Below, piece after piece: positions 26,649-32,675 of a DNA stretch of 64,000 nt (its first letter is position 1; each line of letters opens with the position of its first letter). The notes beneath the pieces were generated by a model, which searched no databases, was not told the DNA's origin, and saw nothing but the letters and a program-made list of their open reading frames with translations. This DNA is from Vulcanimicrobiota bacterium (GTDB taxonomy: Bacteria; Vulcanimicrobiota; Xenobia; Xenobiales; JADMJV01), in contig JBFWNU010000001.1 in assembly GCA_050250895.1 (NCBI GenBank), positions 2,724,891 through 2,788,890 of the forward strand, in the 5' to 3' direction. The position numbers and the translations under genes were made by a program.

Positions 26649-27472
26649 GAATCCTGGCCCTGCTGCTGCTACTGAGTTGTCAGGCCCTGGCCCAGGTGGG
26701 CAGCCTGGTATCGCTATCGGGCACCGAGGTCAAACTCACCTCGCTGCATTATCGCTTCGACCTGACCGAGCCGAAGGCTCGCCTCAGCCTCGAGGCCACT
26801 CTGGTCAATACCACGGATCGAGCGCTTGACGCCCACTACTTGCTGTTGGCTACCCAGGCGCGTCCTCCGGTCGAACTCGACGGCCGACCCTTACCCGTCG
26901 AGTCGACCTCGCGGGGCGAGTTTTACGGGCATGCCTTTCTGGTGCCCCTGTCACCCCACGAAGAGGCCCGACTGACCTCTCGCGTGACCGTGGTCGGCGA
27001 GCCGGCCTTTGATGCCGGACGGCGTGGCTACCGCTACCATCTGGTGGTGCCGGGAGATGGGACCACCGAGTTCGAGTTCGAGCTGCCCGAGTCTCTTTGG
27101 CTCGGCTCGGCCCTATCGCTCGAGTCCACCGAACCCGGCCGTTATCGGGCTCGGGCCCTGACCGGTCAGGTGGCTTTCACCGTCGGCCCCAAGGCCGACC
27201 TCGGATTCGCCCTGGCGTTGGGCGGGCCCATGGTGGTTTTCTTGCTGGCCAGTCTTATCGCTCTTCGGTGTCGACCGGCCGTGGGCCTGACTCTGGCCAT
27301 GCTGCTCGCCGGCGCGACCTATCAGGCCCTCAGTAAATCGGTCTGGCTGATCTGGTCGACCGAGCCGGCCGTCGAGGACCTGCTGAGGTGGTCGCTGGTG
27401 CTGGCGGTCACGGGGGCCGCCGTGGTCACCACCGCTGCCGGAGGAGTGCGTGAGCCTGCTGAGCGAGAGTGA
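26645..27472 (+). CDS. Hypothetical protein with signal peptide and C-terminal TM helices
   Basis: TTGA overlap with MscS stop; (M)RILALLLLLSCQALA; three hydrophobic C-terminal segments. Confidence 0.6.
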   Translation: MRILALLLLLSCQALAQVGSLVSLSGTEVKLTSLHYRFDLTEPKARLSLEATLVNTTDRALDAHYLLLATQARPPVELDGRPLPVESTSRGEFYGHAFLVPLSPHEEARLTSRVTVVGEPAFDAGRRGYRYHLVVPGDGTTEFEFELPESLWLGSALSLESTEPGRYRARALTGQVAFTVGPKADLGFALALGGPMVVFLLASLIALRCRPAVGLTLAMLLAGATYQALSKSVWLIWSTEPAVEDLLRWSLVLAVTGAAVVTTAAGGVREPAERE

Positions 27473-28148
27473 ACTCGAGCGCCGGGACGTGGTGGCCAAT
27501 TGCTCGATGAATCGGGAACGCGGTCTGGCCAGCTATGTCCGAGAACTCCGCTTCGACCCGCTCGGACAACTGGCCGCCGGGGATTGCTGGCTTGACCTTG
27601 GCTGCGGTCAGGGACGGGCTTTGCGCGAGGCAGCCGAGCGTCGCCCGGATCTCCGACTCTTCGGAGTCGACCTGGTATTGCCCGAGCCTTCGCCTGACGT
27701 TGCGTTCGTGGCGGCGGCGGCCCGCCATTATCGACCCCGCCAACGCTTCGGCCTGATCACGATGGTCCACTCACTCCACTATGTGGGCGACAAACTGGGT
27801 TTGCTCGAGCGGGCGTCCCAATGGCTCGAGGAGCGGGGCCGACTGGTGGCCCACCTCGACCTGGCCAACCTGCGCTGGCCTGACGGTCGCCGGGCCGGTC
27901 CCTGGCTGGTCGGCCAGTTGCGTCAGGGTGGTTGGCTCTATCAGGCGCGCCTTCGCCTGCTCTCGCGGGTGGGACCGGCCCCGTTCGGCCCGGAGGTTGA
28001 ATTCCTTGGGGCTGACCCCTCCGCGGGCCCGAACTTCACCGGCCAGGCTGCCGTCCACTCGGTCTACCGTCGCGCACGAACTTTCGACGAAAAACATGTA
28101 ACAAAAGAAATTTCTGGCCGACGTCAAGACCCGAATGGGCAACTTTAG
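27450..28148 (+). CDS. Class I SAM-dependent methyltransferase
   Basis: WLDLGCGQG, FGVDL, LHYVGD. Confidence 0.8.
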   Translation: MSLLSESELERRDVVANCSMNRERGLASYVRELRFDPLGQLAAGDCWLDLGCGQGRALREAAERRPDLRLFGVDLVLPEPSPDVAFVAAAARHYRPRQRFGLITMVHSLHYVGDKLGLLERASQWLEERGRLVAHLDLANLRWPDGRRAGPWLVGQLRQGGWLYQARLRLLSRVGPAPFGPEVEFLGADPSAGPNFTGQAAVHSVYRRARTFDEKHVTKEISGRRQDPNGQL

Positions 28149-28196
28149 CTCGATCTGGACGGCCTTGGATGCGATTTTGGGAACAGGTTTTCCCGG

Positions 28197-28224
28197 TTGA
28201 CATCGTCTTCTGGATGGATATAAT
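28197..28224 (+). promoter_or_regulatory. Consensus sigma70 promoter driving the non-coding unit
   Basis: TTGACA (28197-28202)-N16-TATAAT (28219-28224). Confidence 0.85.
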
Positions 28225-28230
28225 CAAAAT

Positions 28231-29308
28231 CGTTCCGACCACGGAGCCGCCCCGAATCAGCGTGAGTTCGGTGGGGTCTTACACCCCCAGACGGAATGTC
28301 TAAAGGGTAAGCGTTGGGCGAAGACGACATCGCACCCCCGGCGCCCCGGCCGGTCTCCAGGGCAAGGCTCGACTCGGGCCCTAGAACCCTCGCGAGGTTC
28401 GTCCGGCTCCCGAGAATCGAGAGGTCTGGTGCTGGTAGGTATGGCGGCCAGACAGCGGAACACTCAATTGCCGCGGCGCTCCACGATGCCGAAAGAGAGT
28501 GACTTGAGAACCGGTGGTCCGGTTTACGGTGGCAAACCCACCGGCGGCGCTGCTCGAATGCCGTGACAGAGGCGTCTGTCGAACGCGAGCAGGGTAGCTC
28601 TCCACCATAGAGAGCCTGAAGCCTCGATAAGGATTTCGGGGCGAGGCCCGAGACCCAGGCCGGAACCGTGAGGGTAAAGGCTGCCGCTAGTCGGCAGTGC
28701 CGGAGCAGGTCGAAAACGGGAGTCTGGTGCAGGTGAGGTGGCGGCCAGACACGGAGTCGCTCAGGCCGTAAAGAGCGAGGGTTGCGCTCAAACCATAGAA
28801 GCGCCCAGAGCCGACTGGTTAAAACGGGAGTCGTCGCAACGACTTAAGCCGACGGGTCGTGGAGTGCCCGAGGGTTGGAAATCTCGCGCCTGACGTGAGA
28901 ACGTCGAATAGCGAGCGCGGAACTGCTCGAGTGCCGTGGGGGGTGACCGCCAGAAAAGCGAGCAGGGGTAGCATGCATACCTGAGATATGCGCAGCGCTT
29001 CGTCTGAAGACATTCGAAGCGAGGCCCGACGCTCTTGCCGGAACCGTGAGGGGAAAGGCCGACTGGATTCGTCCAGTTCGGTGCCGGTCAAGGCGGACCA
29101 CGGGAGCCTGGTGCAGGAGAGGCGGCGGCCAGGCAGCGGAGCTATCGCTTGCCGCGACGACCACTAATCGTCGAAAGAGATAGACAGCAGATGTCTCGAC
29201 TGCCTAACAATGAGACGACCCTCCGCTTCGGCGAAGGGACCCCGACGCCTGAGTGGTGGCGGTCGGGAACCGAGAGGCGCTCCCTGGCAGGGCGCCTCTT
29301 TCCTTTTT
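28231..29308 (+). ncRNA. Candidate large (~1.07 kb) structured non-coding RNA with internally repeated modules; family not recognised
   Basis: No credible ORF; bounded by promoter and terminator; dense hairpins; three copies of a stem+pseudoknot module and two copies of a multibranch module with compensatory base changes. Confidence 0.8.
29272..29308 (+). terminator. Intrinsic terminator
   Basis: GAGAGGCGCTC-CCTGGCA-GGGCGCCTCTT followed by TCCTTTTT. Confidence 0.8.
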
Positions 29309-29410
29309 CCGGGGGGCGCGTGGGAGTGGTGGAAATCGCCAGGTGCAGTAGGCGTGGATGCTTAGCTGCGGGCGCTTTGGAACTTTGGGGTCGGGGCTGA
29401 CGAGACAGAG

Positions 29411-29686
29411 ATGGGACTAGCGTTGCGGTTTGCCGGACGGCCGCTGCTTTTTCGGAAGCTGGTGGGCTTGGACGGAGGATGCACGCTGGACGGGATCGCG
29501 GATTTGCAGAACGCGATTCGCGAGGAGTTGGGGTTCGGAGAGCCTGTCGTGGTCCCGGACCGTGGGGCTACCTTCTTTGCCACCGTGGGGATGCCGTTTA
29601 CGCTACATCCGGAGGCCCAGTTCCACGAGGTTCAGCTGCGAAAGCTGAAGGATATTCGGTCAAAGTTCCCGCTGGTTGAGCGGTGA
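29411..29686 (+). CDS. Small hypothetical protein
   Basis: 91-aa ORF with ATG filling the gap before the convergent mqnD; no recognisable motif. Confidence 0.35.
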   Translation: MGLALRFAGRPLLFRKLVGLDGGCTLDGIADLQNAIREELGFGEPVVVPDRGATFFATVGMPFTLHPEAQFHEVQLRKLKDIRSKFPLVER

Positions 29687-29757
29687 CGCAATCTGTGCCG
29701 ACTTGGCTTGGTCGGACCCTTCCACCTCCGCGTTAAAACTCCAGCAAGCACCCCCGG

Positions 29758-30591
29758 TCAGGCGGTGACGAAGTCGACCTCGATCGAACGGGGGATGATG
29801 CCGGCCGAGTGGCCTCGCGAGAGCAGTTCACGCACGGCGGCGCGGCCGGCCTGACCGAAGTCGAGAGTCGTGTCGTTGACGTACATCTCGACGAAGCGGT
29901 CGCAGGTGTCCTTGTCGAGCCCTCGGCCCCACTGCAGAGCGTAGTCCAGGGCCTCGTCGCGGTGGTCGAGGCCGTAGCGGATGGAGCGGTCGAGGATGTC
30001 GGCGACCTGGGCGATGCGTTCGGGGCCCAGCGAGCGGCGCACGATGGTCACTCCCAGGGGCAGAGGCAGCCCGGTCTGCTCTTGCCACCATTGGCCCAGG
30101 TCGACCAGTAGCTCGAGGCCTTCGGCGGCATAGGTCAACTGGCCCTCGTGGATGACCAAACCGGCACTGGCCTCACCCGAGCGGACCGTCTCGAGGATTT
30201 GGTCGAAGGGAACCACTTTGTAGGGGAAGTCTCCGGCGTAGAGGCGGGCTACCAGGAAGGCCGTGGTCAGCTCGCCGGGCACGGCTATCGGGCCGGCAAA
30301 GGCCTCTTCCGCCTCGACCCCGGGGCGGGTCACGAAGATCGGGCCGTAACCCTGGCCCAGGCTGGCCCCCGCCGCCAGCAAGGCATAGTCGTCGGCCAGG
30401 TGGGCATAGGCATGCAGAGAGACGGCCGTGACGTCGAGCTTTTGCTCGAAGGCCCACTCGTTGAGGGTCTGGATGTCCTCCATGACGTGCTCGAATTCGA
30501 ACTCGCCCATGTCGATGCGCCGCTGCGCGGTGGCGCAGAACATGAAGGCGTCGTCAGGGTCGGGGCTGTGACCTACGCGAATCAGGGTCAC
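29758..30591 (-). CDS. mqnD: 1,4-dihydroxy-6-naphthoate synthase (futalosine menaquinone pathway)
   Basis: GHSPDPDDAFMF, DIQTLN, G.GYGP, PGELTTA, IHEGQLTY, LPLPLG, MYVN. Confidence 0.92.
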   Translation of the reverse strand: MTLIRVGHSPDPDDAFMFCATAQRRIDMGEFEFEHVMEDIQTLNEWAFEQKLDVTAVSLHAYAHLADDYALLAAGASLGQGYGPIFVTRPGVEAEEAFAGPIAVPGELTTAFLVARLYAGDFPYKVVPFDQILETVRSGEASAGLVIHEGQLTYAAEGLELLVDLGQWWQEQTGLPLPLGVTIVRRSLGPERIAQVADILDRSIRYGLDHRDEALDYALQWGRGLDKDTCDRFVEMYVNDTTLDFGQAGRAAVRELLSRGHSAGIIPRSIEVDFVTA

Positions 30592-32675
30592 GTGGGCTGG
30601 TCCTTGGTCAGGCCCGTCTTCTCGGGGCCCGACCGAGCCTTCTCGTCGCGCACGATGTTGAGGTTCATGCGCGGTTTGGTGAGATAGGTGTTTTGCTTCT
30701 CTTGCACCGACAGTTCAAAGTTGGAGGTGAACACCAGCGAGTCGGTGGGGCAAGCCTCGGTGCACAAGCCGCAATAGCAGCAACGGGCCAGATCGATGGA
30801 GTAGATCTCGGGGTATTCCCAGCCCTCGTCGTTTTCAGGCGAGGCCAGGTGAATGCAGCTGTCGGGACAGGCGTCGACGCAAACCCCGCAACCCACGCAC
30901 ATTTCGGCCGCGCAGCCGTAACAGCGCTTGCCCTCGCGGCGGGCCATGTCGAGCGAGAAGCCCAGGTCAAGCTCGTCGAAGGTCTGAATGCGCACCTCCC
31001 CCGGAATCTTCGGCATCGGCACTTGATAGTTCATCCGCCGGAAGGGCTTCTGCTTGGGCTCTTTGGACCAGGGTCGCGGGTCGACGAAAGCGCTCTCGGG
31101 CGGGCTCTCGACCTCACCCAATCCGGCGCGCCGCGAGACCACTCCCGAACTCAGGGCCGGAGCCGTGCCGTCGACGTAGGGAGTGACGTGCAGCTCAGCG
31201 TGGCCCGACTTCTCATAGCCGTAGAGAAAGGGAAAGCTGTCGGGGCAGCAGTCGTATTTTCTGGCGATGCCGATGCACACCGCATCGGCCATGCCGATGG
31301 CTTCGATGATGGTCGAAACCTTGGCCACGTCGCCGCAAGCCCACACGCCCTCGCGAGTGGTCTTGCCCTGTTCGTCAACCCGGATGGTGCCGTTGCGGTT
31401 GACCTTGATGTCGTCAGGCAGCCAGGGTATGTCGACCATCCGGCCCAGGGCCGTAATGATCATTCCGCACTCCAGAAGATATTCCGAGCCGGCGATGGGG
31501 CGGGGACTGCGCCGGCCCGAGCGGTCTTTCTCGCCCAGGCGATTCTTGATCACTTCCAGGCCGACCAGCTGGCCGTCTTGGATAATGATACGGTGGGGCG
31601 ACGTCAGCCACTCGAGGTGGATGCCCTCCTCCTCGCCATCTTCAATCTCTTCTTCTTCAGAAGGCATCTCGCGGCGGGTGCGCCGATAGATCATGACCAC
31701 CTCGGCCCCCATCCGGCGACAGGTGCGAGCGCAGTCAAAGCCGGTGTTGCCGCCCCCAACCACCACGACCTTTTTGGGCACTTCGGTGAGGCGGCCGCGA
31801 ATCTGCTCTTCGAGAAAGTCCTCGCCGTAATAGACGTAGGGCTTCTCTTCCGAGGCCAATCCCAGATGGTACGGCTTCCAGGCCCCGGCTGCGATGATGA
31901 CCTCGTGATGCCGCTTCTCGAGCTCTTCGAGGGTGACGTCGTTGCCCACTTCTACCGACAGGTGCAGGGTGATACCGTCGAGCTTGTGGATCCGTTCCAT
32001 CTCGCCGTTGACCACGTCGCGGGGCAGGCGATAGATGGGGATGCCCAAAGTAAGAAAGCCTCCGGGAATATCGCGTTGCTCGTAGATGTGGCACTCGAAG
32101 CCCCACGAGCGCAGCAGCATGGCGCATTGGTAGCCGGCCGGGCCGCCGCCGATGATGCCGATGGTCTTGCCGTGGAGCGGCTGACTGCAGCAGTACTTTT
32201 CATACGAGAAACGCTCGGACTCGGGCAGGTTGGCCTCCCAGTCGGAGTATACTCGCTTGAGCTTGCGAATGGCGATGGGCTCGGGCCCGGTAAAACCGCG
32301 CGAGCACTGTTTTTCGCAGGGGGCCGGGCAGACGCGGCCCAGGGTAGCCACGAACGGGTAGGTCTTGCGCAGCATCTCCATGCCTTCGCGCCAGTTGCCT
32401 TCCCCGGCCAGGGTCACGTAACCGCGGGCGTCGGTGTGGGCCGGACAGCCGGTGGTGCAGGGCGCCCAGCGGGTGCCGGGGTACCAGTCGCTCTTGTTCT
32501 TGATCGATTCGGGACTGTGGAAATCGACCATCCTCAGCATTCCGCGCGAGTTGGCCGGAATCGACTCGTTGCGAACCAACGGATAGTTGATGGTCACCGA
32601 CGGTTGACGAAAATGTTTGTAGGTGACCGACATTCCTCCGAGGATGGCCCGAAGGTTGTCGAGGATGGTTGGCAT
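30588..32675 (-). CDS. NuoI-like 2x[4Fe-4S] protein with inserted GltD/NfnB-like FAD/NAD(P)H oxidoreductase module
   Basis: NuoI-like N-terminus (GMSVTYKHF..VTINYP..SRG); GltD-like APC..GCP, GRVCPAPCE..C, GGGPAG, GGGNTGFDCAR, YRR; C-terminal CVGCGVCVDACP and CCYCGLCTEACP. Confidence 0.85.
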   Translation of the reverse strand: MPTILDNLRAILGGMSVTYKHFRQPSVTINYPLVRNESIPANSRGMLRMVDFHSPESIKNKSDWYPGTRWAPCTTGCPAHTDARGYVTLAGEGNWREGMEMLRKTYPFVATLGRVCPAPCEKQCSRGFTGPEPIAIRKLKRVYSDWEANLPESERFSYEKYCCSQPLHGKTIGIIGGGPAGYQCAMLLRSWGFECHIYEQRDIPGGFLTLGIPIYRLPRDVVNGEMERIHKLDGITLHLSVEVGNDVTLEELEKRHHEVIIAAGAWKPYHLGLASEEKPYVYYGEDFLEEQIRGRLTEVPKKVVVVGGGNTGFDCARTCRRMGAEVVMIYRRTRREMPSEEEEIEDGEEEGIHLEWLTSPHRIIIQDGQLVGLEVIKNRLGEKDRSGRRSPRPIAGSEYLLECGMIITALGRMVDIPWLPDDIKVNRNGTIRVDEQGKTTREGVWACGDVAKVSTIIEAIGMADAVCIGIARKYDCCPDSFPFLYGYEKSGHAELHVTPYVDGTAPALSSGVVSRRAGLGEVESPPESAFVDPRPWSKEPKQKPFRRMNYQVPMPKIPGEVRIQTFDELDLGFSLDMARREGKRCYGCAAEMCVGCGVCVDACPDSCIHLASPENDEGWEYPEIYSIDLARCCYCGLCTEACPTDSLVFTSNFELSVQEKQNTYLTKPRMNLNIVRDEKARSGPEKTGLTKDQPT

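What the first reader, a model, noticed from the sequence alone, without database searches (positions are those of the whole stretch)
28479..29257. Complementary distant hairpin loops: possible kissing loops or RNA multimer/cage contacts
Seen: loop CTCCACGA (28479-86) is the exact 8-nt complement of loop TCGTGGAG (28857-64, on stem CGGG/CCCG). The equivalent loop of the third module (CCACT 29161-65) complements AGTGG (29252-56) in the last hairpin before the terminator. Weaker: TGGT in copy 1 matches loop ACCA (~28604) and CAGGT in copy 2 matches loop ACCTG (~28979). Known: GOLLD and ROOL RNAs assemble protein-free multimeric cages through loop-mediated contacts. Inference: these contacts could be intramolecular or could drive self-assembly.
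Basis: partly seen in the sequence, partly recalled or inferred. Interest (0 to 1): 0.72.

Follow-up and report, generated by a model that had tools for sequence, protein, structure and literature searches.

The report
Conserved kissing loops in a giant RNA
The two strong loop-to-loop matches are real, evolutionarily maintained base-pairing contacts inside a previously undescribed, highly expressed, 1-2 kb modular non-coding RNA family of Vulcanimicrobiota bacteria, but whether they fold one molecule or join several cannot be told from sequence.

Summary
Window 28231-29310 (+) is a stand-alone non-coding RNA gene of about 1.08 kb. It has a perfect sigma-70 promoter and an intrinsic terminator and no Rfam match. 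It is one of six paralogs in this genome. Full-length relatives of 1.0-2.0 kb occur in sister genera and in 80 metagenome contigs.

Both are kept by compensatory change in homologs:
- **Kiss 1** (28479-86 with 28857-64): 93.4% of cells paired, 6 of 7 pairs changed on both sides, no shuffle or slid control comes close. Own partner beats shuffled partner in 5000 of 5000 trials.
- **Kiss 2** (29160-65 with 29252-57): own partner beats shuffled partner in 2000 of 2000 trials.

The two "weaker" matches show no conservation.

So kissing loops are supported. Self-assembly into multimers or cages is neither supported nor excluded. I favour intramolecular staples between the tandem modules (about 0.55) over intermolecular bridges (about 0.3). 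The RNA family itself appears new and is the more important result.

The parts
28197..28224 (+). Sigma-70-type promoter: TTGACA, 16 nt, TATAAT (12 of 12 matches)
   Evidence: 1 such site found in 27900-29600, against 0.1 +/- 0.4 in shuffles. Paralogs B-F have TTGAC(A/G)...TA(T/G)(C/A)TT-type promoters at the same distance from the conserved 5' motif.
28231..29310 (+). Giant non-coding RNA gene of about 1.08 kb. 28231 is the start predicted from the -10 box. Assembled RNA contigs begin at 28240-28258.
   Evidence: No long ORF. No Rfam hit. Six paralogs in the genome. Full-length homologs elsewhere. Contigs from RNA libraries cover 28258-29278 (X5), 28286-29203 (X7) and 28361-29288 (X17).
28424..28721 (+). 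Module 1. Contains the J1 hairpin (28424-28453), the GCCG-[H1]-AAAGAG junction and the T1 hairpin (28597-28615).
   Evidence: Internal direct repeats D4, D5, D11, D12 with spacings of 298-681 nt. Paralog alignment.
28474..28491 (+). Hairpin H1. Its 8-nt loop CTCCACGA (28479-28486) is strand 1 of kiss 1.
   Evidence: Folds as a hairpin with an 8-nt loop. Stem covaries: helix 1, 5 of 5 pairs with changes on both sides. Loop covaries with H2.
28722..29105 (+). Module 2. Contains the J2 hairpin (28722-28750), a GCCG/AAAGAG junction without an inserted hairpin, H2, the T2 hairpin (28971-28991) and the most conserved block (28967-29026).
   Evidence: Direct repeats D1 and D2: 71-80% identity to the module 1 and module 3 parts, spacing 378-384 nt. 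The 60-nt block is conserved in 21 of 22 full-length sequences tested.
28853..28870 (+). Hairpin H2 with stem CGGG/CCCG. TCGTGGAG (28857-28864) in its loop is strand 2 of kiss 1.
   Evidence: Stem covaries: helix 3, 6 of 6 pairs. Kissing helix: 93.4% of cells paired and 6 of 7 pairs with changes on both sides.
29106..29270 (+). Module 3 (shortened). Contains the J3 hairpin (29106-29134), the GCCG-[H3]-AAAGAG junction and H4.
   Evidence: Repeats D2-D4 and D9. Alignment.
29155..29173 (+). Hairpin H3, positionally equivalent to H1. ACCACT (29160-29165) in its loop is strand 1 of kiss 2.
   Evidence: z-score -2.96. Equivalent position after GCCG and before AAAGAG.
29241..29267 (+). Hairpin H4, the last before the terminator. 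AGTGGT (29252-29257) in its loop is strand 2 of kiss 2.
   Evidence: -17 kcal/mol, with AGUGGU inside the loop. Compensatory variants in homologs. Own partner 5.92 against shuffled partner 5.19 +/- 0.10, 0 of 2000 shuffles as high.
29272..29310 (+). Intrinsic terminator: 11-bp stem followed by a T tract.
   Evidence: Terminators stand at the same relative place in paralogs and homologs.
28433..28436 (+). TGGT in the J1 loop. It is not supported.
   Evidence: 3.04 vs 3.02 +/- 0.08, with 817 of 2000 shuffles at least as high.
28730..28734 (+). CAGGT in the J2 loop. It is not supported.
   Evidence: 4.46 vs 4.50 +/- 0.10, with 1327 of 2000 shuffles at least as high.

Best explanation
The region is a gene for a giant, highly structured non-coding RNA built of three tandem modules. 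It belongs to a multi-copy family not present in Rfam 15 and not found in my literature searches. I call it the Xenobia giant modular RNA.

The two strong complementarities are Watson-Crick kissing-loop helices of 6-8 bp.
- Each starts from the hairpin inserted in a conserved GCCG/AAAGAG junction: H1 in module 1 and H3 in module 3.
- H1 pairs with the loop of H2, 370 nt downstream in module 2.
- H3 pairs with the loop of H4, 90 nt downstream.

Most likely they act within one chain as tertiary staples. Kiss 1 would clamp module 1 onto module 2, and kiss 2 would close module 3. This would hold the repeated, invariant loop motifs in a fixed arrangement for a still unknown partner. Those motifs are the J loops (GGUGCAGG...GGCGGCC), the T loops (ACCNNAG) and the 12-nt loop at 29003-29014.

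Shown: the transcript signals, the family, the hairpins and the compensatory evolution of both kisses. Inferred: that the pairing is intramolecular, and that its role is architectural.
For: Gene:
- Perfect promoter and a terminator.
- No Rfam match at gathering score, or at E <= 10 for 28000-29500.
- RNA-library contigs 90-99% alike cover the RNA.

Family:
- 6 paralogs of 1090-1161 nt.
- Full-length homologs in the same family of genomes.
- All 16 genome-contig hits and all 80 listed metagenome contigs are homologs by nhmmer.

Kiss 1:
- Distinct complementary codes occur in different lineages: CTCCACGA/TCGTGGAG (window), GTTCCGCG/CGCGGAAC (paralog B), CTCACAG/CTGTGAG, CTCACAA/TTGTGAG, TAGCAC/GTGCTA (L095), AATCACA/TGTGATT (L103), TCACAC/GTGTGA (L117), CCTCACGA/TCGTGAGG (L116).
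- Own-partner score is 6.61 against 5.55 +/- 0.12 for shuffled partners. 0 of 5000 shuffles reached it, on 76 unique loop pairs from 87 sequences.
- On 74 sequences, 93.4% of cells are paired against 84.5 +/- 0.7 shuffled.
- The covariation score is 0.348 against 0.194 shuffled and at most 0.091 when the partner is slid.
- 6 of 7 pairs changed on both sides.
- RNAalifold on 46 representatives predicts the same helix without being told.

Kiss 2:
- Codes seen: ACCACT/AGTGGT (window), TCCAC/GTGGA (B), CCCAG/CTGGG (C, E, F), TCCGTA/TACGGA, TTTCGTA/TACGAAA (L113), TCTACAG/CTGTAGA, TCCACAA/TTGTGGA, TTCGCAG/TTGCGAA (L064).
- Own-partner score is 5.92 against 5.19 +/- 0.10, 0 of 2000, on 67 unique pairs.

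For an intramolecular reading:
- Both kisses are non-palindromic pairs between two different hairpins of the same gene, so nothing in them requires a second chain.
- The RNA already contains several copies of the module in one chain.
Against: - Covariation cannot tell cis from trans pairing. In ROOL and GOLLD, covarying non-palindromic kissing loops first read as tertiary contacts proved to be intermolecular (passages of Kretsch et al.).
- Much of the signal at the best-covarying position (UA 39, CG 30) follows the split between two large clades. Unrelated columns show a similar split. The count of independent events therefore rests on the rarer variants: B, L095, L103, L116, L117 and the L079 group.
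- Exceptions exist. L067 and L133 keep only 3-4 bp. 34 of 513 cells are unpaired.
- In a near-identical strain in four runs, the two outermost pairs of the window's 8-bp kiss are lost on the H1 side (28485 G>T, 28486 A>T). No change at 28857-58 appears among the rows shown; 16 rows were not shown.
- No function is known, and the flanking genes of the six paralogs have nothing in common.
Confidence: 0.55

Rival explanations
1. The same two kissing helices form between copies of the RNA. H1 of one chain pairs with H2 of another, and H3 with H4. This would drive protein-free self-assembly into dimers, rings or cages, as in ROOL, GOLLD and OLE. It is the reader's bolder reading.
For: - Precedent: covarying kissing loops of ROOL (B4) and GOLLD (B7) are intermolecular bridges, and OLE, ROOL and GOLLD are all homo-oligomers (passages).
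- The RNA is abundant enough to be assembled from RNA libraries at high word depth.
- Several paralogs with compatible codes coexist in one genome. The window copy and paralogs D, E, F share CTCCAC/GTGGAG.
- In some members kiss 1 and kiss 2 use the same code, for example CCACAG/CTGTGG twice in G015a. That would allow chain-swapped pairing.
Against: - There is no self-complementary (palindromic) kissing loop, the one sequence signature that demands trans pairing (criterion from the passage).
- The chain already holds 3 modules in tandem here and about 6 in genus g2. The contacts can therefore be satisfied in cis.
- No physical data exist.
Confidence: 0.3
2. The loops pair in trans between different paralogs, or with other RNAs. 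This would be a regulatory base-pairing code rather than an architectural contact.
For: Six paralogs per genome carry partly different codes. Paralog B (CCGC/GCGG) does not match the others.
Against: - Each gene carries both strands of its own code, and the two change together within a gene. That is what a contact within one RNA species predicts.
- No target outside the family was sought or seen.
Confidence: 0.07
3. The complementarities are chance matches in a G+C-rich sequence and have no structural meaning.
For: Perfect 8-nt complements are no more frequent in this RNA than in shuffles: 12 against 14.6 +/- 5.2. The two weak pairs behave as chance.
Against: Both strong pairs lie in loops and are kept by compensatory changes. 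No shuffle reached the observed values, and slid controls fall to 18-63% paired.
Confidence: 0.02

Closest known systems
GOLLD, ROOL and OLE: giant ornate bacterial non-coding RNAs
   Same: - It is a large, stand-alone, highly structured non-coding RNA of unknown function.
- It is rich in GNRA-type tetraloops.
- It has covarying long-range kissing loops (passages of Kretsch et al.).
   Different: - No match to their Rfam models.
- It is longer: 1.0-2.0 kb here. OLE is given as about 600 nt in the abstracts listed. GOLLD at about 800 nt and ROOL at about 580 nt are recalled, not from a call.
- It is built of tandem repeated modules.
- It is present in up to six copies per genome.
- Strong matches were found only in one family of genomes whose record titles read Vulcanimicrobiota or Candidatus Xenobia.
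- Its oligomeric state is unknown.
Peripheral kissing loops of large ribozymes, such as P13 and P14 of the Tetrahymena group I intron or the I/V kissing loop of the Varkud satellite ribozyme (recalled from memory, not from any call)
   Same: 6-8 bp loop-loop helices between distant hairpins staple domains of one chain and are maintained by covariation.
   Different: - No intron or ribozyme signature is present: no Rfam hit, no flanking exons, its own promoter and terminator.
- No catalytic function is indicated.
CsrB/RsmZ-type modular protein-sponge RNAs (recalled from memory)
   Same: A stand-alone RNA made of repeated modules that each display the same conserved loop motif. The number of modules differs between lineages: 3 here and about 6 in L017.
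   Different: - The modules here are 220-380 nt with elaborate covarying structure and tertiary contacts, not short GGA hairpins.
- No partner protein is known.
- The flanking genes give no hint.

Membership tests
Kissing-loop (loop-loop) interaction | Both strands lie in the loops of hairpins whose stems are themselves real | tested here: met
   All four segments lie in loops when the hairpins are folded alone. The H1 and H2 stems covary: 5 of 5 and 6 of 6 pairs with changes on both sides.
Kissing-loop (loop-loop) interaction | Antiparallel Watson-Crick complementarity of about 5 bp or more | tested here: met
   8 bp (28479-86 with 28857-64) and 6 bp (29160-65 with 29252-57). The family-wide core is 5-7 bp.
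Kissing-loop (loop-loop) interaction | Complementarity kept by compensatory change in homologs | tested here: met
   Kiss 1: with 0 of 5000 and 0 of 500 shuffles reaching the observed values. Kiss 2: with 0 of 2000.
Kissing-loop (loop-loop) interaction | Physical contact of the two loops in the folded RNA | not testable with these tools
   Needs chemical probing, mutants or cryo-EM.
GOLLD / ROOL / OLE / raiA / HEARO (Rfam families) | Match to the family's covariance model | tested here: not met
   0 matches at gathering score in the 64-kb window and in six related loci. At E <= 10 on 28000-29500 there were only three chance-level hits to unrelated eukaryotic families.
Self-assembling RNA multimers (ROOL/GOLLD/OLE type) | Defined protein-free homo-oligomer of the folded transcript | not testable with these tools
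   No biophysical tool is available.
Self-assembling RNA multimers (ROOL/GOLLD/OLE type) | Self-complementary (palindromic) kissing loop, which can only pair between chains | tested here: not met
   Both kisses pair two different, non-palindromic loops. The criterion comes from the passage read. Its absence does not exclude intermolecular pairing.
Modular protein-sponge or scaffold RNA (CsrB/RsmZ type) | Repeated modules that each expose the same invariant unpaired motif | tested here: inconclusive
   The J-loop and T-loop motifs recur 2-3 times here and about 6 times in L017. They show no covarying partner. No binding partner is known.

The most novel reading that the evidence does not exclude
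The family is a new class of giant RNA whose tandem modules are a covalently linked version of an RNA homo-oligomer. The H-loop kisses would be the former, or still active, inter-subunit bridges. Chains would then assemble through H1-H2 and H3-H4 swapping into protein-free rings or cages. The number of modules per chain (3 here, about 6 in genus g2) would trade off against the number of chains per particle. The DnaA-box pairs upstream of many copies would tie its expression to the replication cycle.
Probability: 0.25. Interest if true: 0.92.

Novelty: new variant of a known kind. Interest (0 to 1): 0.8.

Why it matters
Bacterial non-coding RNAs above 1 kb with dense, conserved structure are very rare, and each known class has led to unexpected biology or architecture. 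This one offers several things at once:
- It is large, multi-copy and modular.
- Contigs from public metatranscriptomic (RNA) libraries cover it.
- It comes with about a hundred natural variants.
- It has two covariation-proven long-range contacts that can serve as restraints for 3D modelling and as handles for mutant design.

It is restricted to a barely cultivated lineage: the record titles of relatives read Vulcanimicrobiota or Candidatus Xenobia.

The tandem-module design gives a natural system for studying how RNA quaternary contacts and tertiary contacts convert into each other.

Tried and rejected
- **Rfam.** There were no matches at gathering score. At E <= 10 there were only chance-level hits to pRNA, mir-181 and MEG8.
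- **Earlier findings.** No earlier notes were seen.
- **Loops from single-hairpin folding.** The minimum-energy folds run the stems into the loops and failed on 20 of 87 sequences. I replaced this with fixed alignment segments.
J1 with T1 and J2 with T2 show no excess over shuffled partners. The same is true for J3 with T2, J2 with T1 and J3 with T1.
- **Scan for partners of the invariant loops.** A column-by-column scan for partners of the T and J loops gave mostly spurious hits. These follow the split between two clades, and it recovered only one kiss-1 pair (28486 with 28857). It was uninformative, and it is a warning against reading single columns.
- **Flanking genes.** They share nothing across the six paralogs: methyltransferase, VitK2_biosynth, Peptidase_C15, GGDEF, S1-P1 nuclease, WD40 and several without a Pfam match. 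They give no functional hint.
- **Marginal matches outside family f1.** These were f2 in 2 of 5 genomes and f5 in 1 of 1, at E 2e-4 to 5e-4. A second query from another family member did not reproduce them: 0 of 5 genomes. I do not count them.
- **Read laying.** No contig of the four runs covered 27700-28217 or 29328-29900. The run marked 'DNA?' (X1) gave only one 1038-nt contig, equal to 28240-29276, so no DNA run goes beyond the RNA.
- **Literature.** Searches for the taxon names with RNA terms, and for new large ornate RNAs, found no description of this RNA. Only listings and abstracts were seen for those. Kretsch et al. was read as 12 passages. Its supplementary tables on covariation were not available.
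- **Not done.** There is no formal count of structure pairs test of kiss 2, because the position of H4 varies too much for a gap-free register. There is no full secondary-structure model; the RNAalifold run is only a rough draft.
Full report
**What is at the locus**

Between a methyltransferase gene (27450-28148, +) and a short ORF plus a menaquinone-biosynthesis gene (29758-30591, -) lies 1.1 kb without a long ORF.
- It starts with a perfect sigma-70-type promoter: TTGACA, 16 nt, TATAAT at 28197-28224. One such site was found against 0.1 +/- 0.4 in shuffles.
- It ends with an intrinsic terminator at 29272-29310.
- Its G+C content (63.3%) equals that of the window (62.9%).
- No Rfam 15 family matches the window at gathering score.
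- On 28000-29500 at E <= 10, only three chance-level hits to unrelated eukaryotic families appear.
- Internal direct repeats with spacings of about 298, 373-384 and 681 nt show three tandem modules.

**It is a member of a family**

The own genome (9.5 Mb, 17 contigs) holds six paralogs.
- Each has a promoter, a conserved 5' hairpin region and a terminator.
- As I cut them they are 1090-1161 nt long.
- A profile built from them finds full-length relatives of 1.0-1.7 kb in genomes of the same family.

Distribution in genomes:
- With a 241-nt query, 15 of 16 genomes of the family match. In genus g2 the matches are short and weak.
- In a sample of 251 genomes of the phylum, strong matches are confined to this family (14 of 15). 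There are marginal ones in f2 (2 of 5) and f5 (1 of 1) and none in the other families, for example 0 of 161 in f15.
- A second query did not reproduce the marginal ones: 0 of 5 genomes.

Public collections:
- A pattern scan of genome contigs gave 16 stretches, all confirmed by nhmmer. Most record titles read Vulcanimicrobiota or Candidatus Xenobia. Four loci carry other labels. Placing the window's organism there is an inference.
- A pattern scan of metagenome contigs stated 82 stretches and listed 80 loci. All 80 match the profile.
- Some are 1.9-2.2 kb contigs with matches at both ends, so the family spans about 1.0-2.0 kb.

I found no description of this RNA in the literature searches (listings and abstracts only).

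**Expression**

- Contigs from three metatranscriptomic runs of two studies are 90-99% alike to the window. They cover 28258-29278, 28286-29203 and 28361-29288.
- Of the 80 metagenome contigs, 46 have an end within 8 nt of the RNA's 5' region, 17 of them at the same profile position. 27 are bounded at both ends by the RNA. That is what assembled transcripts would look like. The library type of those records is not stated, so this is an inference.
- The common 5' end corresponds to window 28240-42, which is 16-18 nt after the -10 box. That is further than a usual start site and remains unexplained.

**The observation**

- H1 (28474-91) has an 8-nt loop that is entirely CTCCACGA.
- H2 (28853-70) carries TCGTGGAG in its loop.
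- H3 (29155-73) carries ACCACT.
- H4 (29241-67) carries AGTGGT.

A perfect 8-nt complement somewhere in the RNA is not above chance: 12 observed against 14.6 +/- 5.2 in shuffles. For two given loops it is improbable, about 9e-5.

**Kiss 1 covaries**

The loops differ between lineages while staying complementary:

| Lineage | H1 loop / H2 loop |
|---|---|
| Window copy | CTCCACGA/TCGTGGAG |
| Paralog B | GTTCCGCG/CGCGGAAC |
| Paralog C | CACCAC/GTGGTG |
| Paralogs D-F | CTCCAC/GTGGAG |
| Other genera and metagenomes | CTCACAG/CTGTGAG |
| Other genera and metagenomes | CTCACAG/TTGTGAG (with G-U) |
| Other genera and metagenomes | CTCACAA/TTGTGAG |
| Other genera and metagenomes | TCCACAG/CTGTGGA |
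| Other genera and metagenomes | ATCACA/TGTGAT |
| L103 | AATCACA/TGTGATT |
| L095 | TAGCAC/GTGCTA |
| L117 | TCACAC/GTGTGA |
| L116 | CCTCACGA/TCGTGAGG |

Tests:
- I scored the best contiguous duplex between each H1 segment and each H2 segment. Own partners average 6.61 against 5.55 +/- 0.12 for shuffled partners, with 0 of 5000 shuffles as high. This used 76 unique pairs from 87 sequences that have both segments.
- On a MAFFT alignment of 74 distinct sequences, the 7-pair kissing helix has 93.4% of 513 cells paired, against 84.5 +/- 0.7 shuffled.
- On the same alignment, 6 of 7 pairs changed on both sides, in 60 cells.
- The covariation score is 0.348 against 0.194 +/- 0.014 shuffled (0 of 500).
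- With the partner slid by 1-3 columns, pairing is at most 62.7% and the covariation score at most 0.091.
- The window's own row is misaligned by two columns in H2 in that alignment. This works against the result, not for it.
- The stems of H1 and H2 covary as well.
- RNAalifold on 46 representatives predicts the same helix.

**Kiss 2 covaries**

Codes seen:

| Lineage | H3 loop / H4 loop |
|---|---|
| Window | ACCACT/AGTGGT |
| Paralog B | TCCAC/GTGGA |
| Paralogs C, E, F | CCCAG/CTGGG |
| Paralog D | GCCAG/CTGGT (with G-U) |
| Others | CCACAG/CTGTGG |
| Others | TCCACA/TGTGGA |
| Others | TCCGTA/TACGGA |
| Others | CCGTAA/TTACGG |
| L113 | TTTCGTA/TACGAAA |
| One G015 paralog | TCTACAG/CTGTAGA |
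| Another G015 paralog | TCCACAA/TTGTGGA |
| L064 | TTCGCAG/TTGCGAA |

With up to 200 nt of the downstream tail as the search space, own partners score 5.92 against 5.19 +/- 0.10. 0 of 2000 shuffles were as high, on 67 unique pairs.

**Results against, and limits**

- L067 and L133 keep only 3-4 bp of kiss 1.
- G003a and G005a keep about 4 bp of kiss 2.
- The best-covarying position of kiss 1 (UA 39, CG 30, UG 4, other 1) largely follows the split between two big clades. A naive scan shows unrelated columns with a similar split.
- The weight therefore lies on the contiguous register, the slid controls and the rarer lineage-specific codes.
- In four runs a close strain reads T and T at 28485 and 28486, which removes the two outer pairs of the window's 8-bp kiss. 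No change at 28857-58 is among the rows shown, but 16 rows were not shown.
- The two weaker pairs of the finding are not conserved.

**One chain or several?**

Sequence cannot decide this.

For one chain:
- Both kisses join two different, non-palindromic loops of the same gene.
- The chain already carries 3 modules, and about 6 in the g2 locus L017 (1063-2520), which has six T-hairpin units.

For several chains:
- The passages read from Kretsch et al. state that ROOL B4 and GOLLD B7 are covarying kissing loops earlier read as tertiary contacts, and that they are intermolecular.
- Paralogs with compatible codes coexist.
- In some members both kisses use the same code.

Position of the partner hairpins:
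- H2 lies about 90 nt after the module 2 junction, just as H4 lies about 90 nt after the module 3 junction.
- Module 2 has no kissing hairpin of its own at that junction: none in the window copy and B, and a GNRA-capped one in C-F.
- Kiss 1 therefore looks like a module-swapped version of kiss 2. This is my inference.

I put intramolecular at about 0.55, intermolecular at about 0.3, pairing between paralogs at about 0.07 and chance at about 0.02.

**Function**

Function is unknown.
- The flanking genes of the six paralogs share nothing.
- The most conserved parts are unpaired loop motifs that recur per module and show no covarying partner. This fits a scaffold that presents repeated sites. It is a hypothesis only.
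- Upstream of 15 of 25 distinct copies stand DnaA-box-like motifs. They total 27 against 1.05 +/- 0.98 in shuffles, 8 are perfect, and most sit at fixed positions -119 and -107.
- The window copy has none by eye, and paralog B scored none in that count.

**Verdict**

The kissing-loop reading is supported, and the multimer or cage reading remains open. The larger result is an undescribed family of giant modular RNAs.

Noticed in passing
Upstream of related RNA genes, e.g. L033, L068, L108, L020, L135 (perfect box about 117-119 nt before the RNA 5' motif) and own paralogs in L003-L006. Not seen upstream of the window copy at 28000-28196.: Pairs of DnaA-box-like motifs (TGTGGATAA type; the consensus is recalled from memory) stand at fixed positions about -119 and -107. 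They occur in 15 of 25 distinct upstream regions, with 27 boxes against 1.05 +/- 0.98 in shuffles. This suggests DnaA-linked control of many family members.
   Followed up: partly
L017:1063-2520 (+), a genome of genus g2: A diverged relative of about 1.4 kb has its own promoter and terminator. It holds six tandem units of the T hairpin (CAGGGGTAGC...ACC..AG) and J-type hairpins. The number of modules therefore varies between genera: 3 in the window copy and about 6 here.
   Followed up: partly
window 28240-28242: Assembled RNA-like contigs begin here. 17 of 80 metagenome contigs start at the same profile position, and the X1 contig starts at 28240. That is 16-18 nt after the -10 box, which is too far for a usual start site. 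It may mean 5' processing or a different start.
   Followed up: partly
window 28967-29026: This 60-nt block is the most conserved part of the RNA and is kept in 21 of 22 full-length sequences tested. It holds the T2 hairpin, whose stem covaries (GCAU/AUGC, GCGU/ACGC, GCUU/AAGC), and a 7-bp hairpin (28996-29021) with a strongly conserved 12-nt loop. It is a candidate functional core.
   Followed up: partly
window 28485-28486: In all four laid runs the contigs read T and T instead of G and A in the H1 loop. A close strain therefore keeps only the 6-bp core of kiss 1, unless 28857-58 also changed. That could not be seen because 16 rows were not shown.
   Followed up: no
L057:1377-2079 (-) and L090:3631-4333 (+): A second, partial copy of the RNA (profile positions 1-173 and 263-827) lies head-to-head immediately upstream of the full copy.
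   Followed up: no
L027, L038, L040, L042: Full-length homologs lie on contigs whose record titles read uncultured Burkholderiales or Selenomonadaceae MAGs. L040 and L042 are two copies on one 272-kb contig. The labels disagree with the other hits, so mislabelled or mis-binned records are possible.
   Followed up: no
window 27450-28148 (+), 29758-30591 (-), 30588-32675 (-): The neighbours of the RNA gene are a class I SAM-methyltransferase-like protein, a VitK2_biosynth (menaquinone biosynthesis) protein and a large Fe-S/FAD oxidoreductase. None recurs beside the other paralogs.
   Followed up: yes
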